Source: Patescibacteria group bacterium (lineage in GTDB: Bacteria; Patescibacteriota; UBA1384; JBBRAU01). Taken from it: a DNA stretch of 64,000 bases. The stretch spans positions 71,235-135,234 of the forward strand of contig JBBRAU010000001.1 of assembly GCA_038206475.1 (NCBI GenBank). The letters are read 5' to 3'. Shown here one piece after another: positions 3,331-57,021 of this stretch; the first letter of the stretch is position 1, and each line of letters opens with the position of its first letter. The notes below the pieces were generated by a model that ran no database searches, was not told where the DNA came from, and was given only the letters and a program-made list of their open reading frames with translations. The position numbers and the translations under genes are program-made.

Positions 3331-3472
3331 AAGCAGCAGTCTCGGAGCGCAGCTCCGGGGCTAGTGCCTATACCTGTTTTTGTCGTTTAGTGGCCAGGAT
3401 ACTATAGGTAATCTTGGTATCTGGGCACCAAGGACTATAAATTAACAGAAAACAATAAAAATAACTAGCCTT

Positions 3473-41839: not shown

Positions 41840-41927
41840 GGAAGGGTGCTGGAGCGGTCGAACAGGCAGACCTGGAAAGTCTGTGTGGCGCAAGTCACCG
41901 TGGGTTCGAATCCCACCCCTTCCGCCA
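41840..41927 (+). tRNA. tRNA-Ser, anticodon GGA (long variable arm)
   Basis: Manual fold: acceptor GGAAGGG/CCCTTCC, anticodon stem CAGAC/GTCTG with loop CTGGAAA, long variable arm, T-arm GTGGG/TTCGAAT/CCCAC, CCA encoded. Confidence 0.85.
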
Positions 41928-42081
41928 ATTGCGTGACCGCCGTTTAGGCGGTTAAGCAATTGGTTGAGAGGTGATGAATGAAAGCCCAGCGAAACTGGGT
42001 TCGGTCGCGCGCCACGTAGTGGCAAGCGGGGGTACCCCTTGAGGCGTAGCCGAAAGAGGGGTCTATTCACCCCTTCCGCCA
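41928..42081 (+). repeat. tRNA-linked element A: 140-nt insert followed by an exact 14-nt copy (CACCCCTTCCGCCA) of the tRNA-Ser 3' end
   Basis: The direct repeat lies at 41914-41927 and 42068-42081. The element starts with a hairpin that includes the tRNA CCA (CCAATTGCGTGACCGCC/GGCGGTTAAGCAATTGG). It shares blocks GGTTCGGTCG, CGGGGGTACCC, GCGTAGCC and AGGGGTCT with element B. Confidence 0.5.
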
Positions 42082-42150
42082 CATCTCAAAAGAAAATGAC
42101 TCAGCTGGGTCATTGTATTGTGATACGCTAAGACTAAATAAAGGAGGCAG

Positions 42151-42786
42151 ATGGCAACCCATCCGGAACCAAAAATACTGGTGGCATTCTACAGTTTTAC
42201 CGGTCATACGGCCGAGCTGGCGCATGCCGTGGCCAAAGGAGCGGGCAAAGTAACTAGCCAGGTAACGATCCGCCGCATTCCGGAGCTCATCCCTGAAGAT
42301 GCCATTCCGCTGCAGATTCGGAAAATTGAACACGTCTACGCTGATATTCCGCTAGCCACTTCTGACGACCTGGTCAACTGCGACGGCCTGCTGCTCGGTG
42401 GTCCAACGCACTTCTCCGGTCTGGCGGCACAGGTGAAGCAGTACCTCGACCAATTTGGGCCGATTTGGCAGGAGGGCAAATTGGTTGACAAAGTAGCCGG
42501 TGTTTTCACCTCAATGGGCTCTCTACACGGCGGTGAGGAGACGACGCTGCTGATGACTATCACAACCCTAATTGGTATGGGTTTGATTCCGGTCGGCATC
42601 CCGTATCCAATCAAAGGGGCTAGCGAAGATTTTGATGCGGGCTCGCCGTTTGGCGCCATTCACTACGCTGGCCACGACGGCAGCCGAAGCCTACAGGCCT
42701 CTGACCGTCTAACGGCTGAGCTGCTTGGTGAGCGGGTGGCTAAGGTGGCAGCTGCCATGCTCTGCTGTAAAACAAGCGGCCACTAA
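42151..42786 (+). CDS. Flavodoxin-like NAD(P)H:quinone oxidoreductase (WrbA family)
   Basis: N-terminus KILVAFYSFTGHTAELA (flavodoxin-like FMN site); 211 aa; AAAGGAGG RBS. Confidence 0.65.
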   Translation: MATHPEPKILVAFYSFTGHTAELAHAVAKGAGKVTSQVTIRRIPELIPEDAIPLQIRKIEHVYADIPLATSDDLVNCDGLLLGGPTHFSGLAAQVKQYLDQFGPIWQEGKLVDKVAGVFTSMGSLHGGEETTLLMTITTLIGMGLIPVGIPYPIKGASEDFDAGSPFGAIHYAGHDGSRSLQASDRLTAELLGERVAKVAAAMLCCKTSGH

Positions 42787-42841
42787 ACATTGCTTCTGGC
42801 CGAAAAAAAGAGAGCCTCGTGGCTCCCTTTTTTATTCAGAA

Positions 42842-44605
42842 TCACCAACCGCCTCCGCCACCGCCACCGCCGCCAGATCCGGCACCGCCAGAGCTGGTGC
42901 CGGCACTGCTGAACGAGCTCATGGCCGAGCTGAAGTTACTTGCAAATGTGCTTGAATCGAAGCCACCACTGCCGACGTACCACACCGGCGGCGTGAAAGT
43001 AGCTCCCATTTGATCCAACTTCTTCAGCCACTCTTTGGTCAGGCCAAACACCATCGCCCAAGGTAAAAAGCGGTCCAGTTCTCCCTCTTTTTCTAGCCAC
43101 TGTTGGCGATAGCGCTCGGCGACATGCATAAACATGTAAAAGCCCATAACTTGCCGGTACATTGCTAATCCTTTTTCGGTCAGCTCAGAACCGCGGCGGA
43201 ACAAGCGGGTAAATAACAGCAGGATTCCACTAGCGAGCAGGCCGAGTCCCCAAAAGATAGACAGGGCAAACAGGCCGTTTTGCATCAGGGCAATGAAGAG
43301 GCCGCCAATTAATGCCAAGACGACGCCAAAGACGACGTGTTTAATGTTGTTCCAGCTGTAGGTGTTTTCATTAGTCACAAAGCCTTGTTGCTTCAACCAT
43401 TGCCAACCGGCCTCAGAGGGCAGTCTTTGTAGTTGGGCAGCCCGAATGGTGTCTTTGTGCAGATCGTCAAGCGATTGTTCCTTGCCGTTTTGGTCAAACA
43501 GAACACTGGTGATGACTTCGGCTAGTGGCCGACCGCTGGCAGCTGGGCGTTTTTTGAGATGCAGCAGGTAATTTTTATGCCAGAACAGGCCCTTCTTTTC
43601 CTCGATCGTCAGCTCTCCGCGATGCGCCATGTCAATCAAGGTCGCCGGAATAGGCTGGCCATACAGTTCACCTTCGCGGAAGGCATCGGCCAAACCTGGT
43701 TCCAGTGTCGGCGGTTCGTACAGCGGGATAATGGCGCGGGCGTTCTTCCGAGCACTCATGGTCATGCGCTGCCAAATCAGCCAAGCCAGTGTCAGCAGCG
43801 GTAGCAGGCAGGGCAGGACGATCTGCAGCCAGAGTGCCCGCCTGACCGGAGACACTGCCTGGATGGTGCCGCTTGGCAGGAGGCCGCCAGCCGTTAGCTC
43901 CTGGCCGGGCTGCAGGTTTTGGGCCGACGCGGTCATGACGGCGCCGTGAGCTTCGGTTTGGCAGCTTGTTTGAGTGTCGCTAGGCGCGTAGCACAGTGGC
44001 GAGGTCCAGATGCCAGACGCGGTGATGGTCGCTTTGGCGTGTTCGATTGGCACTGTCCAACGGCGGCCGGTGACATTCCACAAAAATTGTTGGCCGTTGC
44101 TTGTTTCAGCCTGAACGGCGGCGGCCTGGTAGTGAATGGTGTAGGTGACGGCGCCGGTATCCACATGCCCGGCGTCACCAATTTTGAGGGTCAATCCGCT
44201 CTCTGCAATAGCCGTGGTGTACGGCGCGGCCACACTGGCCGAGTCGCCTTCGTGCTGCCAGCTAACGTCCCGCAACTTGATGCCTGAGGCGCGGGAACCG
44301 TACAGGTACGATGAATAGGTCAGCGGCAGCGTGCGGTAAATGCCGTGATGCGGATTTTGACCAAAGTCGGCGGTAATTTTTTCCAGAATTTCCGACTGGC
44401 CGTTTTGGCCAATATCTACAGTCGCGACAAAGTTTTTGATAATAAAACCGCTCGAGAGCGAATTCGAGTTTTGATCGTTGACTACTGTGCTGACGGTGTT
44501 ACCGTCGCCAGTGATTTGGACCTGAGTGCTGTCGGCCGCCTGAACCGCCGCGGCAAAGCCAAGCACTGTACAAATGACACCGATAATAAAAAGAGTGTGT
44601 TTCAT
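42842..44605 (-). CDS. DUF2207-like membrane protein with Gly-rich C-terminal tail
   Basis: Signal peptide MKHTLFIIGVICTVLGFAAAVQA (start moved to ATG 44605), large extracellular domain, TM segments, C-terminal SGGAGSGGGGGGGGGW tail. Confidence 0.55.
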   Translation of the reverse strand: MKHTLFIIGVICTVLGFAAAVQAADSTQVQITGDGNTVSTVVNDQNSNSLSSGFIIKNFVATVDIGQNGQSEILEKITADFGQNPHHGIYRTLPLTYSSYLYGSRASGIKLRDVSWQHEGDSASVAAPYTTAIAESGLTLKIGDAGHVDTGAVTYTIHYQAAAVQAETSNGQQFLWNVTGRRWTVPIEHAKATITASGIWTSPLCYAPSDTQTSCQTEAHGAVMTASAQNLQPGQELTAGGLLPSGTIQAVSPVRRALWLQIVLPCLLPLLTLAWLIWQRMTMSARKNARAIIPLYEPPTLEPGLADAFREGELYGQPIPATLIDMAHRGELTIEEKKGLFWHKNYLLHLKKRPAASGRPLAEVITSVLFDQNGKEQSLDDLHKDTIRAAQLQRLPSEAGWQWLKQQGFVTNENTYSWNNIKHVVFGVVLALIGGLFIALMQNGLFALSIFWGLGLLASGILLLFTRLFRRGSELTEKGLAMYRQVMGFYMFMHVAERYRQQWLEKEGELDRFLPWAMVFGLTKEWLKKLDQMGATFTPPVWYVGSGGFDSSTFASNFSSAMSSFSSAGTSSGGAGSGGGGGGGGGW

Positions 44606-44687
44606 GGCCCCAGCATAGAGCTTTTCTGTCTGTAGGCATACGCCCACTCGCGAAATATAGCGATTTATGGTAATTGTAGAGAAGCGA

Positions 44688-44775
44688 GCGCCTGTAGCTC
44701 AGTGGGATAACGACCCGTTGCGCAGCAACGGAACGTTTTCCACTTCGCGCTGCTGGAATTCAAGCTAGTCTCGGA
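44688..44775 (+). pseudogene. Degenerate partial duplicate of tRNA-Arg (first ~20 nt identical to the downstream tRNA 5' end)
   Basis: GAGCGCCTGTAGCTCAGTGG is identical at 44686-44705 and 44798-44817. The upstream copy then diverges and cannot form a D-stem or T-arm. Confidence 0.35.
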
Positions 44776-44799
44776 GCTAAAGCTCCAAGCCCATCTTGA

Positions 44800-44875
44800 G
44801 CGCCTGTAGCTCAGTGGATAGAGCGCTGCCCTCCGAAGGCAGAGGCCACAGGTTCAAGTCCTGTCAGGCGTACCA
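44800..44875 (+). tRNA. tRNA-Arg, anticodon CCG
   Basis: Manual fold: GCGCCTG acceptor, D-arm GCTC/AGTGGATA/GAGC, anticodon stem CTGCC with loop CTCCGAA, T-arm CACAGG/TTCAAGT/CCTGT, CCA encoded. Confidence 0.85.
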
Positions 44876-44921
44876 ACCTAATTCGTTTGGAAAATAAATT
44901 GCGAACTGGGGCAATAACTTT

Positions 44922-46514
44922 GTGAGTACTCATCACCTAAGCAAAAACATGACCAAAGAGCAGGAGCGCACAGAGTTGCACCGTGCTATTTGGCAGATTG
45001 CGAACGATCTGCGCGGAGCAGTGGATGGCTGGGATTTCAAACAGTATGTACTTGGAACGCTTTTTTATCGATTCATTAGCGAGAACTTGACGAACTACAT
45101 CAATGCCGATGAACGTCGCACTGGCAAACAAAATTTTGATTATACAGCGCTTGCCGACGAAGAAGCCGAGTTTGGTCGAGCCGATACGGTGAAAGAAAAA
45201 GGCTTCTATATCTTGCCAAGCGAGCTTTTTGTAAACGTATGCATAAATGCCCGCAGCAACGCCAACCTCAACGAAACGCTTTCTGTTATTTTTCGTAACA
45301 TTGAAAACTCCGCCAAAGGTGCAAGCAGTGAGGATGACCTTCGGGGCCTTTTTGATGACTTAGACGTGAACTCAAGTCGACTCGGAAACACGGTAGAAAC
45401 GAGAAATCGCAAGCTCGCCAAGTTGTTAGAAGCGATCGGCGAGCTTCGCCTCGGTGATTACGCGGATAATACTATTGATGCTTTTGGTGATGCATATGAG
45501 TTCTTGATGACCATGTACGCCTCGACGGCTGGCAAATCCGGAGGCGAATTTTTTACGCCACAGGAGGTCAGCGAGCTCCTCGCTGAAATTACCACTGTCG
45601 GCAAAAAGGAAGTAAACAAAGTTTACGACCCAGCCTGTGGGTCTGGCTCACTGCTCCTCAAATTCGCGAAGGTGTTGGGGCGAGAGAATGTGCGCCAAGG
45701 TTTCTTCGGTCAGGAAATCAATCTTACCACCTATAATCTCTGCCGTATCAACATGTTTCTGCATGATGTGAACTACAACCATTTTGATATTGCTCACGGT
45801 GATACACTTACCGATCCGAAACATTGGGACGACGAGCCGTTTGATGCCATCGTCTCTAATCCGCCTTATTCCATCCACTGGGAAGGTGATGCGGATCCCT
45901 TACTTATCAATGATCCGCGTTTTTCACCGGCCGGAGTGCTGGCACCAAAGAGCAAGGCTGACCTGGCATTTACTATGCACATGCTTTCGTGGCTTTCGAC
46001 CAGCGGCACAGCGGCCATCGTTGAGTTTCCTGGCGTTCTCTATCGCGGTGGTGCGGAGCAAAAAATCCGTAAGTACTTGATAGAGAATAATTACATCGAA
46101 GTCGTCATTCAACTTCCGCCCGATCTCTTTTTCGGCACCACCATTGCCACCTGCGTTATTGTGCTCAAGAAGAGCAAAAAGGACAACAAAACGCTCTTTA
46201 TTGATGCCTCGGCCGAATTTGTACGCAACGGCAATAAAAACAAACTATCACAAGCAAACCGCGCTAAGATTTTAGACGCGTTTACCGCACGCAATGATGC
46301 CGATTACTTTGCCAAATTAGTCGACAATAAAACGATTGCCGAGAATGAGTACAATATTGCCGTATCAAGCTATGTTGTGGCAGAAGACACCCGCGAGGTG
46401 GTGGATATTGCGGTGCTCAATACTGAGATCGCCCGCATTGTTGTGAGGCAGAATGAGCTCCGTACGGCGATTGATAAAATCGTCGTCGATATTGAGGGAA
46501 CAAAAGAACCATGA
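44922..46514 (+). CDS. hsdM: Type I restriction-modification system methyltransferase subunit
   Basis: HsdM N-terminal domain, SAM-binding DPACGSGSLL, catalytic NPPY (VSNPPYSIHW); 530 aa. Confidence 0.9.
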   Translation: MSTHHLSKNMTKEQERTELHRAIWQIANDLRGAVDGWDFKQYVLGTLFYRFISENLTNYINADERRTGKQNFDYTALADEEAEFGRADTVKEKGFYILPSELFVNVCINARSNANLNETLSVIFRNIENSAKGASSEDDLRGLFDDLDVNSSRLGNTVETRNRKLAKLLEAIGELRLGDYADNTIDAFGDAYEFLMTMYASTAGKSGGEFFTPQEVSELLAEITTVGKKEVNKVYDPACGSGSLLLKFAKVLGRENVRQGFFGQEINLTTYNLCRINMFLHDVNYNHFDIAHGDTLTDPKHWDDEPFDAIVSNPPYSIHWEGDADPLLINDPRFSPAGVLAPKSKADLAFTMHMLSWLSTSGTAAIVEFPGVLYRGGAEQKIRKYLIENNYIEVVIQLPPDLFFGTTIATCVIVLKKSKKDNKTLFIDASAEFVRNGNKNKLSQANRAKILDAFTARNDADYFAKLVDNKTIAENEYNIAVSSYVVAEDTREVVDIAVLNTEIARIVVRQNELRTAIDKIVVDIEGTKEP

Positions 46515-47530
46515 AACAGGACGCTCAGAACAATGACATCATCATTTATGAAGGCGAGAACGGCCAGCCGAAAATTGAGGTGCGTGTTGAGGGTGAAACC
46601 GTATGGCTTACTATTGACCAAATGGCCACGTTATTTAACAAAGGACGCTCAACGGTAAATGAGCATATCATCAACATCTATCACGAAAAAGAGCTAGTCG
46701 AGGCTGATTCTGTGAGAAAAATCGGTAATTCCGATTTTTCTACCAAACCCACAAACTACTATAATCTCGACGTTGTCATTTCTGTTGGTTACCGCGTAAG
46801 TTCTGTCCAGGGTACGCGCTTTCGCCAGTGGGCAACCGCACGCCTGCGAGAGTACATCGTCAAAGGCTTCACCATGGACGATGAGCGTCTCAAGAGTTCA
46901 GGTGGCGGAACGTACTGGAAAGAGCTTTTAGAACGCATTCGCGATATTCGGAGCAGCGAGAAGGCCCTTTATCGTCAGGTGTTGGATTTGTATGCGACAA
47001 GTCTAGACTACAACTCAAAAAGCAAAGAAACAGGAGAGTTCTTTAAAACGGTGCAGAACAAACTTCACTACGCCACGAACCAGCAAACTGCCACCGAGCT
47101 TATCCATGCGCGGGCTGATGCTAACAAAGACTTCATGGGACTCACCACCTTTGCCGGAACTATACCTAAGCGATCAGAGGTTTCCATAGCCAAGAATTAT
47201 CTGACCGAAGACGAGCTCTTTCGCCTGAACCGCTTGGTGTCTGCTTTTTTCGACCTTGCTGAAATCAAAGCGCAAGACCATATGCCGATGCATATGAAAG
47301 ACTGGATGGCGGAGCTCGACAAATTTGCTGGGATGTATGGTAAGGGCGTACTGAAAAATGCGGGTGTCGTGAGACATGACGCTGCCATGAAGAAAGCCGA
47401 CCGGGAGTACCGAAAATATCAGGCCAAAACCCTTTCACCCGTTGAAGAAGCATATTTGGCCACGATCAAGGCTTTGCAGAAAAAGGTGGAGAAAAAAGTG
47501 AAAGAGAGCAAGCCAAAGAGTAAAAAGTAA
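46511..47530 (+). CDS. RhuM-family protein embedded in the Type I R-M operon
   Basis: N-terminus DIIIYEGENGQPKIEVRVEGETVWLTIDQMATLFNKGRSTVNEHI resembles the RhuM N-terminal region. Position between hsdM and hsdS, with ATGA overlap to hsdM. Confidence 0.55.
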   Translation: MKQDAQNNDIIIYEGENGQPKIEVRVEGETVWLTIDQMATLFNKGRSTVNEHIINIYHEKELVEADSVRKIGNSDFSTKPTNYYNLDVVISVGYRVSSVQGTRFRQWATARLREYIVKGFTMDDERLKSSGGGTYWKELLERIRDIRSSEKALYRQVLDLYATSLDYNSKSKETGEFFKTVQNKLHYATNQQTATELIHARADANKDFMGLTTFAGTIPKRSEVSIAKNYLTEDELFRLNRLVSAFFDLAEIKAQDHMPMHMKDWMAELDKFAGMYGKGVLKNAGVVRHDAAMKKADREYRKYQAKTLSPVEEAYLATIKALQKKVEKKVKESKPKSKK

Positions 47531-47532
47531 TT

Positions 47533-48672
47533 ATGGCAAAAAATCAAAGCAAAATTGAGAAGCTGATTGCCGAGTACTGTCCCAACGAGGTGGAGTTTAA
47601 AAAGCTCGGAGAGGTCTGTGAAATTACTGATAATAAAAGGAGACCCGTAGCATCGAGTTTACGTGTAGCAGGCAAAATACCATACTATGGTGCAAACAAC
47701 ATACAAGACTATGTTGAAGGTTTCACACATGAAGGTGATTTTGTATTAATTGCTGAGGATGGATCCGCAAACTTAGAAAATTATTCAATCCAGTTTGCGA
47801 CCGGAAAGTTCTGGGCAAATAACCATGTTCATGTTGTTAGAGGATACGATAAATTAAATAATAGGTTTTTATTTCATTATTTAAGAAGCATGAAGTTTAT
47901 TCCATTCTTAACAGGTGGAACTCGTGCAAAGCTTACCAAAAGCAAGATGCTAGAAATAATAATCCCTATTCCGCCGCTTGCGGTGCAGGAGGAGATTGTC
48001 AACATTCTTAATAGCTTTACAGAGCTAGAAGCAGAGCTAGAAGCAGAGCTAGAAGCTAGAAAGATGCAGTACGAGCATTACCGCTCGGCACTTCTGACAT
48101 TTAACGAGGGGGGGGTACGGAGGCCGAGGCTTGATGAAGTATGCCAATCGATTCTCGCAGGCGGAGATTTGCCAGAAAATTATTCGAAGGGTCAAAATAT
48201 GCCAACCCAAGAACTTCCATTCCCCATATATTCAAACGGTTCCGATGATAAAGCGTTGTATGGCTATTCTGATAGCTACAGTATCGGTAGCGAGGCCGTA
48301 ACTATTTCGGCGCGTGGGACCATCGGCTACCACACGGTACGCAAAGCGAAATTCACACCGATTGTTCGTCTCATTACCCTTATTCCCAACACTGAAATTA
48401 TTTCACCAAGGTTTTTAAGCTACGCTCTCGATGTTACTGAAATTGGCCATAGCGGCGGTAGTATTCCACAGTTGACTGTCCCAAATGTCAAAAAAATTCA
48501 AATCCCTGTTCCTGAAATCGCCGAGCAAGAGCGTATCGTGTCTATTTTGGATAAGTTTAATGCACTCGTGAATGACATTTCCGTTGGCCTGCCGGCAGAG
48601 CTTGCTGCGCGTCGGTCGCAATACGAATATTATCGAGGTAAGCTCCTGACATTTAATGAAATGACAGTATGA
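47533..48672 (+). CDS. hsdS: Type I restriction-modification specificity subunit
   Basis: Two target-recognition domains separated and followed by conserved helical repeats (..QYEHYRSALLTFNEG and ..QYEYYRGKLLTFNE). The central region contains an ELEA x3 repeat. Confidence 0.85.
   Translation: MAKNQSKIEKLIAEYCPNEVEFKKLGEVCEITDNKRRPVASSLRVAGKIPYYGANNIQDYVEGFTHEGDFVLIAEDGSANLENYSIQFATGKFWANNHVHVVRGYDKLNNRFLFHYLRSMKFIPFLTGGTRAKLTKSKMLEIIIPIPPLAVQEEIVNILNSFTELEAELEAELEARKMQYEHYRSALLTFNEGGVRRPRLDEVCQSILAGGDLPENYSKGQNMPTQELPFPIYSNGSDDKALYGYSDSYSIGSEAVTISARGTIGYHTVRKAKFTPIVRLITLIPNTEIISPRFLSYALDVTEIGHSGGSIPQLTVPNVKKIQIPVPEIAEQERIVSILDKFNALVNDISVGLPAELAARRSQYEYYRGKLLTFNEMTV
48023..48058 (+). repeat. 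12-bp tandem repeat GAGCTAGAAGCA x3 (encodes ELEA x3) in the hsdS central spacer region
   Basis: Exact tandem copies seen directly in the sequence, inside the central conserved region between TRD1 and TRD2. Confidence 0.85.
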
Positions 48673-49334
48673 ACCAAATTATTTACATCCTCACTAATGA
48701 GTCAATGCCTGAATATATAAAAATCGGGTTTACTCATGGCGAGGTGAACGAAAGAATTAAGCAACTTGACAGAACGGGCGTGCCACTTCCTTTTGAAATT
48801 TACTACGCAGCTACTGTGGAGAATGCAGAGAATGAGGAGAAATGGCTACACTCTATTTTTGCTGACCGTAGAGCGCGCGATAGTCGTGAATTTTTCAGGA
48901 TGAGTCCGGAACACGCAACTCTTGCACTTAAGCGGGTTGAAATTACCGAGGAAAAAATAGAGAACATCCTAACTAAAGAGCAGGAAAAAGAAGTAGACAA
49001 GGCAAAAGAAAGAAGGGCGCGATTTCAGTTTGCTCAGTATGGAATTCCTGTCGGTTCTAAACTGACATTCACTAGAGACGAAGGTATCGTCGCTGAAGTT
49101 GTGGAGAACGATAAAATAAAAATTGGTGACAGCGTAAGCAGCCTATCCACCTGCGCGATGGAGCTGTTGGGGTATCAGAGACGGCCGCAGGGAACCTTAT
49201 ACTTCAAGTTCAAGGACGAGATATTAGATGACAGGCGAAAGAGAATGGATGAGGTGGAACCAACGCCAAAGGGCGTAGAAGCTGCTGGTGATGAGTGGAT
49301 GTCACAACAGGCAGAAATAGAACAAGGAAAATAA
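48669..49334 (+). CDS. T5orf172/GIY-YIG-like domain protein embedded between hsdS and hsdR
   Basis: N-terminus IIYILTNESMPEYIKIGFTHGEVNERIKQLDRTGVPLPFEIYYA fits the T5orf172 (GIY-YIG-like) pattern; 221 aa; ATGA overlap with hsdS. Confidence 0.5.
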   Translation: MNQIIYILTNESMPEYIKIGFTHGEVNERIKQLDRTGVPLPFEIYYAATVENAENEEKWLHSIFADRRARDSREFFRMSPEHATLALKRVEITEEKIENILTKEQEKEVDKAKERRARFQFAQYGIPVGSKLTFTRDEGIVAEVVENDKIKIGDSVSSLSTCAMELLGYQRRPQGTLYFKFKDEILDDRRKRMDEVEPTPKGVEAAGDEWMSQQAEIEQGK

Positions 49335-49335
49335 T

Positions 49336-52300
49336 ATGTCCACTAACAATAAATACCATCTTGTTTCTGAAAATACGCAAAGCACCGTTGTGGCCGAATT
49401 TGCACCAGACGGCGTTCGTGTGGCGCACTATCAAAGCGAAGCAGAACTAGAAAAAGCGCTTATTCAGCAGCTTGAAACACAGGCATATGAATACGTGGCC
49501 ATTGCTACTGAAGCCGACTTGGTGGCGAACCTGAGAAAACAGCTAGAGAAACTGAACAATTTTACGTTTGGCGATAGCGAATGGGAACATTTCTTTACTG
49601 GCGAACTTGCCAACCCGAATCAGAGTATTGAAGAAAAGACAGCGACTATTCAAGAGGACTACATTAAAAACCTTACGCGCGATGACGGCACAATCAAAAA
49701 TGTGTACTTGTTAAAAAAAGACAACATTCATAATAATAGCTTGCAGGTTACCAATCAGTACGCCACAGAAGACGGTATGCGGGCTAATCGCTACGATGTG
49801 ACAGTGCTTGTGAATGGTCTGCCAATGGTGCACATCGAGCTAAAACGGCGCGGTATAGCCATTCAAGAGGCCTTCAATCAGATTAATCGCTATCAGCGCG
49901 AAAGTTTTTGGGCGGCCAGTGGGCTATTCGAATATGTGCAGTTGTTTATTATTTCCAATGGTACTCACACCAAATACTACAGCAACACCACGCGTAAAGA
50001 ACACATTAAAGATGCAAGCGAAGGCGCGGCGAAACAAGGCAAGCGCTCAAGCAACAGTTTTGAATTTACAAACTGGTGGGCCGACGCCACTAACCGGCCA
50101 ATTTCCGATCTAATGGATTTTGCCCAGACCTTTTTTGCCAAACACACGCTTCTTAATATCCTCACTCGTTACTGCGTATTTACGACCGATCGACAGCTTC
50201 TGGTGATGCGCCCATATCAAATTGTGGCAACCGAACGAATACTGAACCGCATTGAGGTGAGTACAAATTATAAGCAGCTCGGCACCATAGAAGCCGGTGG
50301 GTATGTATGGCACACCACTGGGTCAGGGAAAACTCTGACAAGCTTCAAAACAGCCCTACAGGTGAGCAAACTGGCGTATGTAGACAAAGTGGTGTTTGTG
50401 GTTGACCGCAAAGATTTAGACTACCAAACTATGCGCGAATACGACAAGTTCGAGAAAGGCGCAGCCAACAGCAACACCTCGACGGCGGTATTAAAACGAC
50501 AGTTGGAAAATCCGCAAGCCCGAATCATTATCACAACCATTCAAAAGCTCGATCATTTCGTAAGCCGCAACGCCGGACACCGTATTTTTGACGGTCACGT
50601 CGTACTTATTTTTGACGAATGCCATCGCTCACAGTTTGGTGATATGCACGCCGCAATCACAAAGGCCTTCAAGAATTACCACATTTTCGGTTTTACGGGC
50701 ACGCCAATTTTTGCGGTCAACGCGTCCTCTGGAGGCCGTCCAGATTTCAAAACGACCGAGCAGGCCTTTGGCGATAAATTGCACACGTACACCATTGTAG
50801 ACGCGATTGCCGACAAAAATGTTCTACCGTTTAAGGTGGATTATGTTTCTACGGTTCGTGAAGCCGAGGATATTGAAGATAAAAAAGTAAGCGATATTGA
50901 TCGCGAGGCAGTGCTCGCTTCTCCAGAGCGTCTGGCGAATATTGTCGGTTATATTCGTGAGCATTTTGATCAAAAAACGAAGCGCAATAGCTTCTACAAA
51001 CTGAAAGACCGGCGGTTGGCCGGCTTTAATTCTCTCTTTGCCGTTTCGTCAATTGATGTCGCTAAGAAGTACTATGTTGAGTTCAAGCGTCAGCTCGCCG
51101 ACGCGCCAAGTGATAAGCGTCTCAAAATAGCGACCATATTCAGCTTTGGTGTCAATGACGATGATGCCGACGGTATGCTAGATGAAAACTCAGATGACAC
51201 GAGCGGGCTAGACGCAAGTTCACGGGACTTTTTGGAACATGCTATCGCTGACTATAATGCGATTTTTGGGACTTCGTACGACACGTCGTCCGACAAATTT
51301 TCCAATTATTACAAAGATGTGAGCTTGCGCGTTAAAGGCCGCGAGATTGATATTTTGATCGTCGTCAACATGTTTTTAACTGGCTTTGATGCAACAACGC
51401 TTAACACACTCTGGGTTGATAAAAACTTGCGACTTCACGGCCTATTGCAAGCTTTCTCGCGGACAAACCGTATTCTCAACAGCGTAAAGACTTTTGGCCA
51501 TATCGTGTGCTTCCGCAATTTAGAAAAGGCAACGAATGAATCAATTGCGCTTTTTGGTGATAAAGAAGCCAGAGGCGTTGTATTGCTAAAATCATATGCT
51601 GAATACTACGGGGGTTACGTGCACGGTGATAAGGCGGTGCTTGGCTATGCAAATCTCGTCGCTGAGCTGCTTGAGAAGTATCCTATTGGGCAGGCTATTA
51701 TTGGCGAACAAAGTCAAAAGCATTTTATCAGACTATATGGCGCAATTTTGCGTGTGCGGAACATTTTGACGACATTTGATGAATTTGTGGGCAACGAAAT
51801 TTTGACCGCGCGTGATGTGCAAGACTACCACAGCATGTACATTGACCTCTATAACGAATTTAGCAAAGGCGTGGAAGACGACAAAGAGAACATTATCGAT
51901 GACGTCGTATTTGAGATGGAACTGATCAAACAGATTGAAATAAATATTGACTACATTTTGGGGCTCATCAAACACTATCATGAAGATCATACTCAAAACC
52001 GTGAGCTTTTGGCGGATATCAACAAAGCAATCGACTCAAGTATTGAACTGCGAAACAAAAAGGATCTTATTAATCAATTTATTTTATCGCTCGACATACA
52101 CTCAGTGGTTGATGATGATTGGCAGAAGTTTGTCAACCAGAAAAAGACGGAAGAACTTGAGCAAATTATTGAGACCGAAGGGCTGGATCGCGATGCCACC
52201 TATACGTTTGTGCGAAACGCCTTCCGCGACGGAGGCGTAATGGTGACCGGCACAGACATCTCTCGTGTTCTGCCTCCGGTATCTCGCTTTTTAGCAACCG

Positions 52301-52395
52301 GCGAGCGTTCTGAGAAACGCAATAGCGTGCTCAATAAATTAACGAGTTTCTTTGAGCGATTCTTCGATATCTCCGGCGGTTCATTCACGGACTAG
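49336..52395 (+). CDS. hsdR: Type I restriction endonuclease R subunit
   Basis: N-terminal nuclease domain, DEAD-box helicase motifs (TGSGKTLT, DECHRSQ), 1019 aa. Confidence 0.9.
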   Translation: MSTNNKYHLVSENTQSTVVAEFAPDGVRVAHYQSEAELEKALIQQLETQAYEYVAIATEADLVANLRKQLEKLNNFTFGDSEWEHFFTGELANPNQSIEEKTATIQEDYIKNLTRDDGTIKNVYLLKKDNIHNNSLQVTNQYATEDGMRANRYDVTVLVNGLPMVHIELKRRGIAIQEAFNQINRYQRESFWAASGLFEYVQLFIISNGTHTKYYSNTTRKEHIKDASEGAAKQGKRSSNSFEFTNWWADATNRPISDLMDFAQTFFAKHTLLNILTRYCVFTTDRQLLVMRPYQIVATERILNRIEVSTNYKQLGTIEAGGYVWHTTGSGKTLTSFKTALQVSKLAYVDKVVFVVDRKDLDYQTMREYDKFEKGAANSNTSTAVLKRQLENPQARIIITTIQKLDHFVSRNAGHRIFDGHVVLIFDECHRSQFGDMHAAITKAFKNYHIFGFTGTPIFAVNASSGGRPDFKTTEQAFGDKLHTYTIVDAIADKNVLPFKVDYVSTVREAEDIEDKKVSDIDREAVLASPERLANIVGYIREHFDQKTKRNSFYKLKDRRLAGFNSLFAVSSIDVAKKYYVEFKRQLADAPSDKRLKIATIFSFGVNDDDADGMLDENSDDTSGLDASSRDFLEHAIADYNAIFGTSYDTSSDKFSNYYKDVSLRVKGREIDILIVVNMFLTGFDATTLNTLWVDKNLRLHGLLQAFSRTNRILNSVKTFGHIVCFRNLEKATNESIALFGDKEARGVVLLKSYAEYYGGYVHGDKAVLGYANLVAELLEKYPIGQAIIGEQSQKHFIRLYGAILRVRNILTTFDEFVGNEILTARDVQDYHSMYIDLYNEFSKGVEDDKENIIDDVVFEMELIKQIEINIDYILGLIKHYHEDHTQNRELLADINKAIDSSIELRNKKDLINQFILSLDIHSVVDDDWQKFVNQKKTEELEQIIETEGLDRDATYTFVRNAFRDGGVMVTGTDISRVLPPVSRFLATGERSEKRNSVLNKLTSFFERFFDISGGSFTD

Positions 52396-52505
52396 CCAAA
52401 GTCACCATACGTAAATGGCAAGAGTAGGGTTTGGGCATCTTGGAAAAATAGCTACTCTAAAGCGCGTTTTTTGACACTCTGCTCGCGCCTTGCTTGAGTG
52501 AAGTT

Positions 52506-55451
52506 ATGCCAGACGACCTCGTTCAACAAGTAAAGCAACGCCTTGACATCCTTGACTTGGTCCAAGGCTATGTTCAGTTGAAAAAAACCGGCATTAACTG
52601 GAAGGGCCTCTGCCCGTTCCACCAAGAGAAAACGCCGTCGTTTACCGTCAACCAAGAACGTCAGAGCTGGCACTGTTTTGGCTGCTTCCCGAAGGGTTCT
52701 CATGTAAAAACTCCAAGAGGTTTTTGCGATATTGACCAACTTCGAGCAGGAGACGTTGTTATCTCGGGGAAAGGGCAGGAAAAGTCCGTACTCACGACGC
52801 ATCGTCATATGTATAAGGGCGAGCTCGTCCGTATTTCTTTATGCAAGCTTGGTGGCGAAGTGGCGCTAACCGGGGATCATAAAGTATTCGCTTTACGCGG
52901 AGCGCCTTACACCAAAATCTATAAAAACTTCAGCCGACGCTTGAAGCGCTACCAACAACTGCCAGCGGACCAATATCGACAAAAGCTCGACCGCTACTTC
53001 CCTGTCGAAAAAGTGGAGGCACACGAGTTAACGATTGGCGATTTGTTATTATATCCAATCTCCTACAGGACCGAACCAATCTCTTCGCTAGTCCCTTGTG
53101 ACCATTTAACAAAAACATTCCGTCTTGGGCCGAAACCGAGTGATTTACCAAAAGAGCTCCCGATTACTGACAGTCTACTGAAATTACTCGGATACTATAT
53201 TGCTGAGGGTAGTAACCATCGTGCCTACATTCGATTTAGCCTCGGTGGCCATGAGCTGAAACTCGCTAAAGAGATTCAAGTCTTGCTCAAAGAAGTGTTT
53301 GGCCTGGTCTCTAGCATCCACGTTCGCCAAGGAGGCAAGCCCGGGATAGAGGTTACGTGCTGTCACGCTGCGCTAGCCGATATTTTTGGCAACTTGTGTG
53401 GCAAAGGGGCGGCCAATAAACACATCCCTTTTGAGCTTCGGCACTTGCCAGTAGGCCAACAGCAGGTGCTGCTTAACGCCATCTGGACGGGTGACGGTAC
53501 TGCTCGTGCTAAACATCGGTCACTTAAAATTGAACGCTCAATCGGCAGTATTTCGCAGACACTGGCCGAGCAAATAGTTGATATCTTGCTGCGCAGGCAT
53601 ATCTTTCCCTCGCTTCAGGTTATCCAAGCACATACGAGCGGCGATGGCGTCAAACACAGAATGGCCTACACTGTTGTTTGGGGAGAGGCTGGTGAGGATA
53701 AATACAATAGTGTCTACCAAGCGGCGGGCGGTACTCATTATTGGGTGTTGCCAGTTGTCCATATAGCAAAAGAACCCTTCTGCGACGAGGTGTTCAACCT
53801 GACGATTGAGGATGACCATTCGTATGTCGCGCGCAATTTCGCGGTTGCCAACTGCGGCGAGGGCGGGGACATTTTTACCTTTGTCGAAAAGATTGAACAC
53901 GTTGAATTTAAAGAGGCGCTGGAGCTGCTGGCTGGCCGGGTTGGGCTGGAGGTCAAACCGCAAACGCCGGTTGAGCGTCAGCAGAAGGGCGAAAAGGCGA
54001 AACTTGAGGAGCTATACCAGCTGGCCAGCCGCTTCTACCACGCGTTGCTCATTAACCATCCGCTTGGCCAAGCTGCCCGCGATTACCTCGCCAAGCGGGG
54101 TGTTTCAGCTGAGTCGGTCAAAGCGTGGCAATTGGGTGTGGCGCCCGACCACTGGGACGCCCTGCTCTCGGCACTGCAAAAGCGCGGTTTCACGGCCGAT
54201 GAGTTGGTCAAGGCCGGATTGGCCGTCAAAAATGAGCGCGGCAACATTTATGACCGCTTTCGGAACCGCTTGTTGTTCCCGATTATCACCGCCAGCGGCC
54301 AACCGGTCGCTTTCTCTGGCCGGGTGATAACGGCTGATCAAGAACCCAAATACTTAAACTCGCCTGAGAGCCTGCTCTATCGCAAGAGCAGTGTTGTGAT
54401 GGGACTGAATTTAGCCAAAGAGGCAATTCGGAAGGCCGGCCAAGTAATGGTGGTCGAAGGCAATTTAGATGTCCTTATTTGCCAGCAGTTTGGCCTGACC
54501 AACACCGTCGCTACCGGCGGCACGGCGCTAACGTCTGACCACCTGCGCTTACTGGCTCGCTACGCCCCAGTCGTTATTTTTGCCTTTGATGCGGACGCCG
54601 CCGGCCAGAAAGCGGCTGAAAAGGCGGCGCTGTTGGCGCTAGAGGTGGGCCTGGAGCCACGCTTCATTGCCTTGCCGGCCGGAGATGACCCAGACTCGCT
54701 GCTACGCCGGGATGAAGCCGCCTTCCGCCAGGCTATGGCTGCCGCTCTGCCGGCCGTGCCGTACTTTTTAGAACGGGCGCTCAATGAGTATGGCCAGGCT
54801 ACCGCACAAGCCAAAAAGCAGGTGGCGGCAGCGGTGGTGCCGTTGCTCCGCCGCATACACGATCCAGTCGAGCAGGCGGATTCATTGCAGCAGGTGGCCG
54901 ACCGACTGCATGTGCCACGAGAGGCCATAGAGAGTGCTGTTTCAGCTGAGACGAAGGCAAAAACGACCGTTCCGGTGGTAGCGGCGACCGCCCGCCGCGG
55001 TCCGCTCGAGCCAAGCCAGCGCTTGTTTGGCCTGCTGCTGCTCTCGGAACGGCCACTGCCACCGCTTGACCCACTGCTACAGGATAGTCCAGACAAAACG
55101 CTGCAGTTTTTGCAGGCTCGGCAGGCAGAGGGGATTGGCGACAAGATGAGTTGGGCGACGTGGCAGGCCAAGCAACCGCAGCCAATCCAGGCGCGTTTGG
55201 CCTCACTGCTGACCGTGGCGGCCGAAGCCTACGGTGAGTTGCCACAGGAGCAGTTCGAGGCTGAAATTACGCTGCTTTTGGCGGCGCTGCGTTCCCGGGT
55301 TCTTGAGCACCAGCAATCGGACCGCCAGGCCGAAATTCGGCTGGCCGAGCAGGCGGGCGACAAGGCGCGCGTACGCTCACTGCTGCAAGAGATGATGGAT
55401 GATTTGGTCATGCCCCCACCGGCCAGCGCGGATCCTCGTCAAAAAACATAA
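52506..55451 (+). CDS. dnaG: DNA primase DnaG interrupted by an intein
   Basis: Zinc ribbon CPFHQEKTPSF..WHCFG. The extein resumes CGEGGDIFTFV. TOPRIM (VVEGNLDVL) and a C-terminal helicase-binding domain are present. Start taken at ATG 52506 (MPDDLVQQVK); the ORF-track 52494 is TTG. Confidence 0.85.
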   Translation: MPDDLVQQVKQRLDILDLVQGYVQLKKTGINWKGLCPFHQEKTPSFTVNQERQSWHCFGCFPKGSHVKTPRGFCDIDQLRAGDVVISGKGQEKSVLTTHRHMYKGELVRISLCKLGGEVALTGDHKVFALRGAPYTKIYKNFSRRLKRYQQLPADQYRQKLDRYFPVEKVEAHELTIGDLLLYPISYRTEPISSLVPCDHLTKTFRLGPKPSDLPKELPITDSLLKLLGYYIAEGSNHRAYIRFSLGGHELKLAKEIQVLLKEVFGLVSSIHVRQGGKPGIEVTCCHAALADIFGNLCGKGAANKHIPFELRHLPVGQQQVLLNAIWTGDGTARAKHRSLKIERSIGSISQTLAEQIVDILLRRHIFPSLQVIQAHTSGDGVKHRMAYTVVWGEAGEDKYNSVYQAAGGTHYWVLPVVHIAKEPFCDEVFNLTIEDDHSYVARNFAVANCGEGGDIFTFVEKIEHVEFKEALELLAGRVGLEVKPQTPVERQQKGEKAKLEELYQLASRFYHALLINHPLGQAARDYLAKRGVSAESVKAWQLGVAPDHWDALLSALQKRGFTADELVKAGLAVKNERGNIYDRFRNRLLFPIITASGQPVAFSGRVITADQEPKYLNSPESLLYRKSSVVMGLNLAKEAIRKAGQVMVVEGNLDVLICQQFGLTNTVATGGTALTSDHLRLLARYAPVVIFAFDADAAGQKAAEKAALLALEVGLEPRFIALPAGDDPDSLLRRDEAAFRQAMAAALPAVPYFLERALNEYGQATAQAKKQVAAAVVPLLRRIHDPVEQADSLQQVADRLHVPREAIESAVSAETKAKTTVPVVAATARRGPLEPSQRLFGLLLLSERPLPPLDPLLQDSPDKTLQFLQARQAEGIGDKMSWATWQAKQPQPIQARLASLLTVAAEAYGELPQEQFEAEITLLLAALRSRVLEHQQSDRQAEIRLAEQAGDKARVRSLLQEMMDDLVMPPPASADPRQKT
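52683..53852 (+). mobile_element. Intein (390 aa) with LAGLIDADG homing endonuclease inserted in the DnaG zinc-binding motif
   Basis: Begins with Cys right after HCFG (CFPKGSHVKT..) and has a block-B-like TGDH. Two LAGLIDADG-like motifs are LLGYYIAEGS and LLNAIWTGDG. It ends ..DDHSYVARNFAVAN followed by extein Cys. Removing it restores HCFGCGEGGD. Confidence 0.7.
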
Positions 55452-55521: not shown

Positions 55522-56673
55522 TTGCGAGGCTACGTGACCAAAAAAGTCATTCGTATACAAAAAGAGGATCGGCCAGACTTTCCGGATGGGGTTTTAGAGT
55601 TAGTGGACAAAGGCCGTGGCAGCGGTTTTGTGACGCTGCAGGAGTTGCAGCAAGCCTGGCCTGAGCCAGAATCTGACCTAAATCTTTTGGACGATATTTT
55701 CAACTATCTGTTTGAAAAAGGGGTTGAGGTGCGCGACACGGCGGTTGATGAAGTGGGGTTATTGAGAAGCCAGGCAAAGAATGAAAATATCTCGCGCCTG
55801 TCATTGAAAGATCAGCTCAAAGAGCAAAGTGACGATTTGCGCGATATCTCGGACGACTCAGTGCGTATGTACTTGCGTGAAATCGGCCGCATTCCGCTTC
55901 TTACCGCCGAGGATGAAATTCGATTGGCCAAGCGTATTGCCAAAGGCGACAAAGTGGCCAAGCGGAAGCTGGCCGAAGCTAATTTGCGCTTGGTTGTCTC
56001 CATCGCTAAAAAATACATTGGCCGCGGGTTGGGCCTCTTGGACTTGGTGCAAGAGGGCAACACCGGCCTGCTGCGCGCGGTTGAGAAGTTTGACTACCGA
56101 AAGGGCTACAAATTCTCTACCTATGCCACCTGGTGGGTGCGCCAGGCCATCACGCGGGCTATTGCCGACCAAGCCCGCACCATTCGCATTCCGGTACACA
56201 TGATTGAAACGATCAACAAGCTCATTCGCACCCAGCGTCAGCTGGTGCAAGACCTTGGCCGCGAGCCGCTGCCCGAGGAGATTGCCGCCGAGATGGGCGT
56301 GGATGTTGACAAGGTAGAGCACATCTTAAAAATCTCGCAAGAGACGGTTTCGCTGGAGGCGCCGGTGGGTGAGGAGGAGGACTCCAAGCTGGCTGACTTT
56401 ATTCAAGATACCGAGAGTCTGTCGCCTGAGGAGTCGGCCATCTATCAGCTGCTCAAGGACCATGTTGCCGAGTCGCTGCAGAACCTGTCACCGCGTGAGC
56501 AAAAAATTCTGCGTATGCGCTTTGGCCTGGACGACGGCAAAAGCCACACACTTGAGGAAGTTGGCCAAGAGTTTGGCGTCACGCGTGAGCGCATTCGCCA
56601 AATTGAAGCCAAGGCGCTGCAGAAGTTGAAAAAGCACGAAACGGCCAAAAACCTCAAAGACTACCTGGACTAA
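55522..56673 (+). CDS. rpoD: RNA polymerase primary sigma factor (sigma-70)
   Basis: Regions 2-4 conserved ([54 protein letters not shown]). TTG or GTG start is uncertain. Confidence 0.9.
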
Positions 56674-56744: not shown

Positions 56745-56819
56745 TCCTGGGTAGCTCAATGGCAGAGCGGCTGGCTGTTAACCAGCGGGTTGTCGGTTCG
56801 AGTCCGACCCCAGGAGCCA
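56745..56819 (+). tRNA. tRNA-Asn, anticodon GTT
   Basis: Manual fold: acceptor TCCTGGG/CCCAGGA, anticodon stem GCTGG with loop CTGTTAA, T-arm GTCGG/TTCGAGT/CCGAC, CCA encoded. Confidence 0.85.
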
Positions 56820-56955
56820 AAACAATGCAGGCGTAGCCTGTTTTTGTTTTGGCTCCTGGGGGACAGGAGTTGAACTGCCGCATGGCGGTTCGGTCGTGAG
56901 CGGAGTGAACGGGGGTACCCTGCGTAGCCAGGGGTCTGTCCGACCCCAGGAGCCA
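56820..56955 (+). repeat. tRNA-linked element B: ~118-nt insert followed by an exact 18-nt copy (GTCCGACCCCAGGAGCCA) of the tRNA-Asn 3' end
   Basis: The direct repeat lies at 56802-56819 and 56938-56955. An 18-nt perfect inverted copy of the tRNA 3' end plus trailer (56808-56825 vs 56844-56861) forms a long hairpin. It shares conserved blocks with element A. Confidence 0.5.
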
Positions 56956-57021
56956 ATACCGAGATTTAGAAGATTAAGCATCGCGGCCCTTGACGCAATG
57001 CTGATTGTAGTATTTTATGGA

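What the first reader, a model, noticed from the sequence alone, without database searches (positions are those of the whole stretch)
44686..44921. tRNA-Arg(CCG) is preceded by a decayed partial copy of its own 5' end and followed by a low-GC Type I R-M island
A 20-nt exact duplicate of the tRNA-Arg 5' end lies 112 nt upstream of the intact gene, in sequence that otherwise cannot fold as a tRNA. Immediately downstream begins an ~7.5-kb block (hsdM-rhuM-hsdS-T5orf172-hsdR, 44922-52395). Its GC content by eye is well below that of the flanking dnaG and DUF2207 genes. This pattern fits horizontal acquisition of the R-M island at a tRNA locus, with the partial tRNA copy left as a scar. The duplicated part is the 5' end and lies upstream, which is the mirror image of elements A and B. 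The mechanism is therefore unclear.
Basis: partly seen in the sequence, partly recalled or inferred. Interest (0 to 1): 0.5.

Follow-up and report, generated by a model that had tools for sequence, protein, structure and literature searches.

The report
tRNA-Arg fragment beside acquired restriction island
A dead 20-base copy of the start of a tRNA-Arg gene lies just upstream of the intact gene, and a horizontally acquired restriction-modification defence island lies just downstream; both are ordinary marks of a tRNA gene used as a recombination hot spot, and nothing shows that one event made both.

Summary
GAGCGCCTGTAGCTCAGTGG occurs exactly twice, at 44686-44705 and 44798-44817. The second copy is the 5' end of a genuine tRNA-Arg(CCG) at 44800-44875. 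The first copy is not a tRNA.

The block from 44949 to 52395 is an intact Type I restriction-modification (R-M) operon with two embedded candidate defence genes. Its GC is 0.455, against 0.56-0.60 in the flanking genes. Five relatives lack it upstream of dnaG. In the closest relative, a sequence homologous to this tRNA's last six bases and 3' flank lies about 230-290 nt before dnaG. This is an apparent empty site. HsdM has more than 120 homologue clusters at 84-88% identity, with named sources in several phyla. Horizontal acquisition at the tRNA locus is therefore well supported.

The link between the two features is not supported. The R-M block has no integrase and no displaced 3' tRNA fragment. 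It lies outside the pair of repeats, which enclose only 92 nt.

A 5' tRNA-gene fragment upstream of the intact gene is a known minority configuration (159 of 3919 Islander islands). I read the copy as a non-functional rearrangement scar. It is either a nearly erased 5'-type element or the stump of an older gene copy.

The finding is ordinary and of low interest. Side observations are tRNA-targeting large serine recombinase islands in relatives, a shared module after tRNA-Ser and tRNA-Asn, and an intein in dnaG.

The parts
44686..44709 (+). Orphan 5' fragment of tRNA-Arg(CCG). It matches tRNA positions -2 to +18 exactly, and to +21 with one inserted G. It is not a tRNA.
44710..44764 (+). Junction DNA after the fragment. 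It contains a 7-bp perfect hairpin, CCGTTGC-GCA-GCAACGG (44714-44730), followed by AACGTTTT, which is terminator-like.
44765..44799 (+). Proximal leader of the intact tRNA, with the hairpin GGAGC-TAAA-GCTCC. A similar hairpin sits at almost the same register upstream of tRNA-Arg(GCG) (3351-3364, minus strand). This suggests a native tRNA-Arg leader.
   Evidence: score alone: 204 of 3000 shuffles reach it; the shared register adds weight
44800..44875 (+). Intact tRNA-Arg(CCG).
44876..44896 (+). Native 3' flank of the tRNA. Window 44870-44896 (the tRNA's last six bases plus this flank) is homologous to the start of relative contig L007, in which dnaG follows without any R-M genes.
44949..46514 (+). 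hsdM, the Type I methyltransferase. An alternative GTG start lies at 44922.
46511..47530 (+). RhuM-family gene embedded in the operon (PADLOC candidate defence family PDC-S05).
47533..48672 (+). hsdS, the specificity subunit, with two target-recognition domains.
48669..49334 (+). T5orf172/MUG113-domain gene embedded between hsdS and hsdR (PADLOC candidate defence family PDC-S57).
49336..52395 (+). hsdR, the Type I restriction subunit, with an EcoR124-type C-terminal domain.
52396..52505 (.). Right junction of the island, between hsdR and dnaG. It holds no tRNA fragment. The only repeat shared with the left junction is the 8-mer TTGGAAAA, which is at chance level.

Best explanation
tRNA-Arg(CCG) is a recombination and integration hot spot in this Patescibacteria-like lineage. 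The window carries two separate traces of that.

**1. The R-M island (downstream).** A 7.4-kb defence island was inserted between the tRNA's native 3' flank and dnaG. It is an intact Type I R-M system of the EcoR124 kind, with a RhuM gene and a T5orf172 gene embedded in the operon. It arrived by horizontal transfer and has since lost, or never had, its own recombinase and distal attachment site.

**2. The orphan fragment (upstream).** The 20-24-nt copy of the tRNA's 5' end is a non-functional orphan tRNA-gene fragment left by a different rearrangement. There are two candidate origins.
- (a) It is the left junction of a 5'-type integrative element. Such an element carries its own copy of the tRNA 5' end so as to rebuild the gene, and its interior here has since been deleted to 92 nt.
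- (b) It is the stump of an older tRNA-Arg copy whose 3' two-thirds were deleted or replaced.

**Shown:** the repeat; its non-tRNA status; the foreign composition of the block; its absence from relatives; and use of tRNA-Arg(CCG) as an attachment site in a relative.

**Inferred:** which kind of event produced the fragment, and that it is inert.
For: **The repeat.**
- It is exact and beyond chance.
- Its left edge coincides with the tRNA 5' boundary (-2). Its right edge falls in the D-loop (+18 to +21). This is expected for an identity block that rebuilds a gene, or for two copies of a conserved gene in diverged flanks.
- The upstream copy is not a tRNA.

**The configuration is known.** Fragment upstream in direct orientation is the accepted 5'-type configuration, seen in 159 of 3919 Islander islands (PMC4383910).

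**The hot spot.**
- Relative L001 has a 7.7-kb island at tRNA-Arg(CCG). It carries a large serine recombinase gene abutting the tRNA 3' end and a 42-nt displaced 3' fragment.
- L006 has the same architecture at tRNA-Asn, plus an older decayed fragment 829 nt further on. Elements therefore accrete and decay at tRNAs in this lineage. Tycheposon islands show the same behaviour (bioRxiv 10.1101/2020.12.28.424599).

**The R-M block.**
- GC is 0.455 and GC3 0.40-0.55, against 0.56-0.60 and 0.60-0.64 in the flanking genes.
- It is absent upstream of dnaG in five relatives, and L007 gives an apparent empty site.
- HsdM has 84-88% homologue clusters named from several phyla and sitting in unrelated contexts.
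- The same R-M family is common on plasmids.
Against: - Nothing between the repeats proves that an element was ever there: no recombinase remnant, and no similarity to the ends of the L001 island.
- The proximal 35 nt of the spacer looks like a native tRNA-Arg leader. That fits origin (b), or an in-situ gene, better than element DNA.
- No close relative carries the fragment, so its age, conservation and polarity cannot be read.
- The contrast between exact identity over 20 nt and none beyond could also reflect selection on the fragment. This was not tested.
- The R-M block has neither an integrase nor a flanking repeat, so its mode of entry is unknown.
Confidence: 0.65

Rival explanations
1. 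Single-event replacement. Incoming DNA from a related donor carried its own upstream region, a complete tRNA-Arg(CCG) and the R-M island. On the right it recombined by homology in or near dnaG. On the left it joined illegitimately inside the resident tRNA at about +21. The resident gene's 5' stump stayed upstream of the imported intact gene. This would tie the fragment and the island together and would explain the 'mirror image'.
For: - The junction reads CAGTGG-GATA-ACGACC, where the tRNA reads CAGTGGATAGAGC. A 4-5-nt microhomology (GATA) sits at the joint. Such microhomology is typical of homology-facilitated illegitimate recombination (my own knowledge of that mechanism).
- The 92-nt spacer looks like an ordinary region upstream of a tRNA: a terminator-like hairpin, then about 60 nt, then the gene, as in L001. 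Its leader hairpin is shared with tRNA-Arg(GCG).
- There is no integrase and no 3' fragment for the R-M block.
- The low-GC tract continues into the 5' part of dnaG.
Against: - It still needs an earlier, unexplained insertion of the R-M block next to the donor's tRNA, so it is no more economical.
- The tRNA's 3' flank matches relative L007. That is equally consistent with the gene being native and in place.
- The low GC in dnaG is explained by the intein.
- A 4-nt microhomology is weak evidence.
Confidence: 0.2
2. A local tandem duplication, or a decayed tandem tRNA gene. A 112-nt unit, or a whole second tRNA-Arg gene, was duplicated in place and the upstream copy then decayed.
For: - Tandem partial duplication of promoter plus tRNA 5' part does occur. 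L009, from an unrelated high-GC organism, has a unit of about 117 nt duplicated upstream of tRNA-Arg(TCT).
- The upstream unit 44688-44764 is tRNA-sized (77 nt). It shows weak colinear matches to the tRNA: GCGCTGC and TTCAAG.
Against: - Unlike L009, nothing outside the 20-24 nt is similar. Neither the upstream flanks nor the remainder match (819 of 2000 shuffles reach the score), and the offsets of the weak matches are inconsistent with a 112-nt unit.
- Uniform decay cannot give 20 of 20 identity next to random sequence.
- The left edge of the repeat coincides with the gene boundary, which an arbitrary duplication would rarely do.
Confidence: 0.08
3. A functional cis or trans element. The fragment plus hairpin could be a small tRNA-5'-half-like RNA or a leader structure affecting tRNA-Arg expression. 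Alternatively, the 112-nt unit could be a miniature non-autonomous integrative element that is still recognised by a recombinase.
For: - The 112 nt fold more stably than shuffles (-44.9 kcal/mol, z = -3.7, 0 of 200 shuffles).
- A terminator-like hairpin follows the fragment.
- tRNA-Ser and tRNA-Asn in the same window carry comparably small units (about 140 nt) ending in a copy of the tRNA 3' end.
Against: - No promoter-like site lies upstream and there is no Rfam match.
- Complementarity between the fragment and the spacer is at chance level (556 of 2000 shuffles).
- The spacer shares nothing with the tRNA-Ser/tRNA-Asn module.
- No second instance was found in any collection searched.
Confidence: 0.07

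Closest known systems
Islander-type genomic islands with a displaced 5' tRNA-gene fragment (159 of 3919 mapped islands; PMC4383910)
   Same: There is an intact tRNA gene with an end-fragment of the same gene in direct orientation on the upstream side. The identity block starts at the gene's 5' boundary.
   Different: Only 92 nt lie between the fragment and the gene. There is no integrase and no cargo. The block would end in the D-loop, which is not one of the three sublocations I recall from Williams 2002 (anticodon loop, T-loop, 3' end); that paper was not held in the library.
tRNA-adjacent variable islands with stacked and degraded elements, e.g. tycheposon islands of Prochlorococcus (bioRxiv 10.1101/2020.12.28.424599)
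   Same: A tRNA gene heads a variable region that carries defence cargo. Partial tRNA copies and element remnants are left behind. The content differs between relatives.
   Different: The lineage here is Patescibacteria-like. Relatives' elements use large serine recombinases rather than mostly tyrosine recombinases. The island in this window has no recombinase at all.
Type IC restriction-modification loci (EcoR124I and EcoprrI kind) with a guest gene inside the operon
   Same: HsdM, HsdS and HsdR are present, and HsdR has the EcoR124-type C-terminal domain. Accessory genes sit inside the operon: T5orf172 lies between hsdS and hsdR, the position prrC occupies in EcoprrI (my own knowledge). The same R-M family occurs on many plasmids.
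   Different: The guest genes are RhuM (PDC-S05) and T5orf172 (PDC-S57), not prrC. The locus is chromosomal and next to a tRNA. No activity was tested.
Tandem partial duplication of a tRNA gene with its promoter (example found here: L009, WNGJ01000563.1, tRNA-Arg(TCT))
   Same: A 5' part of a tRNA-Arg gene is repeated about 110 nt upstream of the intact gene, in direct orientation.
   Different: In L009 the whole unit is duplicated (upstream region plus 50 nt of the tRNA). In the window only 20-24 nt are shared.

Membership tests
tRNA-targeting integrative island (Islander signature) | An intact tRNA gene at one end | tested here: met
   tRNA-Arg(CCG) at 44800-44875; ARAGORN and Rfam 73.2 bits
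tRNA-targeting integrative island (Islander signature) | A displaced end-fragment of the same tRNA gene, in direct orientation and on the correct side (5' fragment upstream) | tested here: met
   44686-44705 is an exact copy of positions -2 to +18, on the + strand and upstream; configuration rule from PMC4383910
tRNA-targeting integrative island (Islander signature) | An island of at least about 2 kb, with an integrase gene, lying between the fragment and the tRNA gene | tested here: not met
   Only 92 nt lie between the repeats and they hold no ORF. It can be at most a remnant.
tRNA-targeting integrative island (applied to the R-M block) | A displaced 3' tRNA-gene fragment at the distal end of the block | tested here: not met
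   No copy of the tRNA-Arg(CCG) 3' part elsewhere in the window, with up to 3 mismatches or by local alignment. The weak inverted match at 57103-57121 is at background level.
tRNA-targeting integrative island (applied to the R-M block) | A recombinase gene on board | tested here: not met
   All five ORFs are R-M or candidate defence genes (Pfam; PADLOC)
Horizontally acquired genomic island (broad sense) | Composition differs from the host, and the block is absent from the orthologous site in relatives | tested here: met
   GC 0.455 against 0.56-0.60; GC3 0.40-0.55 against 0.60-0.64. L003, L005, L006, L007 and L008 lack it, and L007 gives an apparent empty site.
Type I restriction-modification system | HsdM, HsdS (two target-recognition domains) and HsdR, all full length and in one operon | tested here: met
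   Pfam N6_Mtase plus HsdM_N; Methylase_S twice; HSDR_N, SWI2_SNF2/ResIII, T1R_D3 and EcoR124_C. PADLOC MTase_I, Specificity_I and REase_I.
Type I restriction-modification system | Restriction and methylation activity | not testable with these tools
   Needs experiment or methylome data
Functional tRNA gene (applied to the upstream copy) | Cloverleaf with an acceptor stem, detected by tRNA models | tested here: not met
   No ARAGORN call. No Rfam tRNA hit at E<=10 in a 331-nt search. No sequence complementary to GCGCCTG is in position.
Tandem segmental duplication | Similarity extends across the whole repeated unit, flanks included | tested here: not met
   Similarity stops at +21, and the remainder is at chance level (819 of 2000 shuffles). 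Contrast the true tandem duplication in L009.

The most novel reading that the evidence does not exclude
The fragment marks site-specific integration with crossover in the D-loop of a tRNA gene. The element would rebuild the 5' end of the gene: a 5'-type event at a fourth sublocation. It may have been carried out by the large serine recombinases that target tRNA genes in this lineage. Under this reading the 112-nt unit is a miniature, or fully eroded, member of that element family.
Probability: 0.1. Interest if true: 0.5.

Novelty: new member of a known kind. Interest (0 to 1): 0.22.

Why it matters
It adds one documented case of a defence island (Type I R-M plus two candidate defence genes) inserted next to a tRNA gene in a poorly sampled Patescibacteria-like lineage, with relatives providing an apparent empty site. 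It also shows that a tRNA 5' fragment lying upstream of its gene need not be puzzling.

The finding changes no general picture. Any wider value lies in the side observations. Relatives carry large serine recombinase islands flanked by tRNA-gene fragments, although the Islander and TIGER papers (2014, 2020) say serine integrases are not known to target tRNA genes. A conserved module also follows two other tRNAs in this window.

Tried and rejected
**Searches for relatives**
- A DUF2207 protein scan of genome contigs found no relative. The organism is barely represented: the best non-self DUF2207 hit is 50% identical.
- A metagenome scan for two copies of the 18-mer 80-110 nt apart returned one unrelated locus, L009, which is a true tandem duplication.
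- A genome-contig scan for the tRNA's T-arm and acceptor 24-mer returned 15 loci. Most are titled as Acidobacteriota, Gammaproteobacteria or other unrelated phyla. The three I checked hold other tRNAs, and none of the 15 contains the fragment's 18-mer.
- An exact look-up of the T5orf172 product found nothing on record.

**Hypotheses about the fragment that failed**
- An inverted copy of the fragment inside the spacer, giving a direct-inverted-direct architecture as at tRNA-Asn. The duplex energy is at chance level for Arg (556 of 2000 shuffles), though highly significant for Asn (0 of 2000).
- A third copy of the fragment upstream of tRNA-Ser. Its score of 16 is below the window background of 19-22.
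- An inversion of the tRNA-Ser...DUF2207 segment relative to L005, mediated by inverted repeats. No significant repeats lie at the presumed breakpoints.
- The fragment as a pseudogene with homology through the whole tRNA. This is not significant.

**Checks on the R-M block and the spacer**
- A target duplication flanking the R-M block. Only the 8-mer TTGGAAAA is shared, which is at chance level.
- Similarity of the 92-nt spacer to the L001 island ends, to the tRNA-Ser/tRNA-Asn module or to any other locus. None was found.
- A direct repeat of tRNA-Glu bounding the island in L013. None lies within the 21.5 kb held.

**Assembly**
- Assembly artefact or chimera was rejected. Independent contigs are identical to the window. 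The lineage-specific module lies on both sides of the tRNA. L005 links tRNA-Ser(GGA), tRNA-Arg(CCG) and dnaG.

Full report
**1. What is there**

Pfam and ARAGORN give this layout for window 41.8-56.8 kb:

| Feature | Coordinates | Strand |
|---|---|---|
| tRNA-Ser(GGA) | 41840-41927 | + |
| FMN reductase | 42151-42786 | + |
| DUF2207 membrane protein | 42842-44647 | - |
| 20-nt orphan copy | 44686-44705 | + |
| tRNA-Arg(CCG) | 44800-44875 | + |
| hsdM, rhuM, hsdS, T5orf172, hsdR | 44949-52395 | + |
| dnaG | 52494-55451 | + |
| rpoD | 55522-56673 | + |
| tRNA-Asn(GTT) | 56745-56819 | + |

By its RpoD relatives, the organism belongs to the Patescibacteria (candidate phyla radiation). It is very poorly sampled. 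Apart from itself, the best DUF2207 hit is 50% identical.

**2.

- The 20-mer GAGCGCCTGTAGCTCAGTGG occurs exactly twice, 112 nt apart. No further copy exists even with 3 mismatches allowed. The chance expectation is 0.01.
- It covers tRNA positions -2 to +18, and reaches +21 with one extra G.
- Beyond that, similarity of the upstream region to the tRNA is at chance level (819 of 2000 shuffles).
- The upstream copy is not a tRNA for ARAGORN, nor for the Rfam tRNA model at E<=10 in a 331-nt search.
- Two contigs from an independent assembly of run SRR19962014 reproduce window 41901-44844 and 44826-48049 base for base. The arrangement is therefore not an assembler's invention. Those contigs do break inside the tRNA, as expected where several organisms in a sample share tRNA k-mers.

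**3. The restriction-modification (R-M) block is foreign**

- Composition: its GC is 0.455 and its GC3 is 0.40-0.55. DUF2207, the FMN reductase, the dnaG C-extein and rpoD have GC 0.53-0.60 and GC3 0.60-0.65.
- Gene content: PADLOC calls a complete Type I system, plus PDC-S05 (the RhuM gene) and PDC-S57 (the T5orf172 gene), both candidate defence families.
- Absence from relatives: none of the five with rpoD 75-88% identical has it upstream of dnaG (L003/L004, L005, L006, L007, L008).
  - L005 (84%) keeps tRNA-Ser(GGA) and tRNA-Arg(CCG) together, about 1.9 kb upstream of dnaG. A sortase gene and a glycosyltransferase gene lie between.
  - L007 (88%) begins with GTACCAACC...TTGGAAAATA. This matches the tRNA's last six bases and its flank (window 44870-44896). 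Only 1 of 3000 shuffles reaches the score. dnaG starts about 230-290 nt later. This is an apparent empty site, and it places the left junction of the island between 44897 and 44948.
- Spread of the family: HsdM has more than 120 homologue clusters at 84-88% identity. Those that carry names come from Peregrinibacteria, Parcubacteria and Omnitrophota.
  - The contexts are unrelated. One sits next to a ribosomal protein operon with a different guest gene (L010-L012).
  - Another sits in a defence cluster with cyclic-oligonucleotide signalling (CBASS-type) genes. That cluster ends in a large serine recombinase gene 176 nt from a tRNA-Glu (L013).
  - The family is also frequent on plasmids of several phyla.
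- Caveat: relatives' contigs have GC 0.43-0.51. A donor within the same broad group would therefore fit the composition.

**4. The fragment is not demonstrably the scar of that acquisition**

- The R-M block lies outside the repeat pair, which encloses only 92 nt.
- The block has no recombinase.
- No displaced 3' fragment of tRNA-Arg(CCG) exists in the window.
- Its two junctions share only an 8-mer.

**5. What the fragment most likely is**

A 5' fragment upstream and in direct orientation is the accepted configuration for the minority of islands that rebuild the 5' end of their target. There are 159 such islands among 3919 in Islander (PMC4383910).

tRNA genes are used and re-used as attachment sites in this lineage.
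- L001 has a 7.7-kb island at tRNA-Arg(CCG). Its large serine recombinase gene overlaps the tRNA 3' end, and a 42-nt 3' fragment sits at the far end.
- L006 has the same at tRNA-Asn, with an exact 20-nt fragment and an older fragment at 75% identity 829 nt further on.

An eroded 5'-type element is therefore plausible. Equally possible is the stump of an older gene copy whose 3' part was deleted or replaced.
- The fragment is followed after 4 nt by a terminator-like hairpin of the kind that follows complete tRNAs here.
- The last 35 nt before the intact gene carry a hairpin that also sits at almost the same register upstream of tRNA-Arg(GCG).
- A GATA microhomology lies at the joint.

A single-event version, in which imported DNA brought its own tRNA together with the R-M block, would link the two features. 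It needs an extra earlier step and has no positive evidence.

Simple tandem duplication is disfavoured. Nothing but the 20-24 nt is shared, in contrast to the true tandem duplication found in L009.

A functional reading has little support:
- no promoter-like site;
- no RNA family match;
- complementarity between fragment and spacer at chance level;
- no second instance anywhere searched.

The stable fold (z = -3.7) comes mainly from two local hairpins.

**6. Verdict**

- The horizontal origin of the R-M island at the tRNA locus is supported.
- The causal link between the island and the fragment is unsupported.
- The 'mirror image' is a known minority configuration.
- This is an ordinary new instance of known phenomena.

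**7. Limits**

- No close relative carries the locus in an informative alternative state.
- The rest of the genome was not available.
- The promoter, transcription and R-M activity could not be tested.

Noticed in passing
window 41928-42083 and 56820-56959: tRNA-Ser(GGA) and tRNA-Asn are each followed, about 140 nt downstream, by a direct copy of their own 3' end (CACCCCTTCCGCCA and GTCCGACCCCAGGAGCCA). Just before that copy, both carry a shared module of about 60 nt: GGTTCGGTCG...CGGGGGTACCC...GCGTAGCC...AGGGGTCT. The module occurs nowhere else in the window, and in the other loci searched (L001-L008) only in L002, the same organism's own contig. RNAalifold gives a multi-hairpin fold with one compensatory pair. 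In relative L006, the position after tRNA-Asn holds a 7.7-kb serine-recombinase island before the same DsbD-like gene. The units therefore look like eroded or miniature elements, but an RNA gene is not excluded.
   Followed up: partly
window 56808-56861: The 3' end of tRNA-Asn plus 6 nt is followed by its perfect 18-nt inverted complement, around an inner terminator hairpin. The duplex energy is -39 kcal/mol, reached by 0 of 2000 shuffles. The inverted copy could pair with either the tRNA end or the downstream direct copy. Its purpose is unknown.
   Followed up: partly
L001 309-8142; L006 11658-20280; L013 19702-21292: Large serine recombinase genes (Resolvase, Recombinase and Zn_ribbon_recom domains) sit against the 3' ends of tRNA-Arg(CCG) and tRNA-Asn, and 176 nt from a tRNA-Glu. 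In L001 and L006 the islands are bounded by direct tRNA 3' fragments of 42 nt (79% identity) and 20 nt (exact). The Islander (2014) and TIGER (2020) papers state that serine integrases are not known to target tRNA genes.
   Followed up: partly
window 52686-53852 (within dnaG, 52494-55451): dnaG carries an intein of about 389 aa with a LAGLIDADG homing-endonuclease domain. It is inserted in the zinc-finger motif (HCFG/C...N/CGEGGD). The five relatives' dnaG genes (564-612 aa) lack it. Its GC is 0.49, which extends the low-GC tract beyond the R-M island.
   Followed up: partly
window 41840-44800 compared with L005 1-243: In relative L005, tRNA-Ser(GGA) and tRNA-Arg(CCG) are divergent neighbours 77 nt apart. 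In the window, tRNA-Ser is on the same strand as tRNA-Arg and 2.9 kb away, with the FMN reductase and DUF2207 genes between. In L001, DUF2207 lies downstream of tRNA-Arg(CCG) instead. The locus has been rearranged repeatedly. No repeats were found at the presumed breakpoints.
   Followed up: partly
L009 128-262 (WNGJ01000563.1): An unrelated high-GC organism has a clean tandem duplication of about 117 nt. It comprises the upstream region plus the first 50 nt of tRNA-Arg(TCT), and leaves a truncated copy upstream of the intact gene.
   Followed up: no
window 5260-6609, with 3576-4985: dnaA lies next to the rnpA and yidC genes, and a low-GC stretch spans 5-7 kb. The window therefore probably includes the chromosomal replication origin region.
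   Followed up: no
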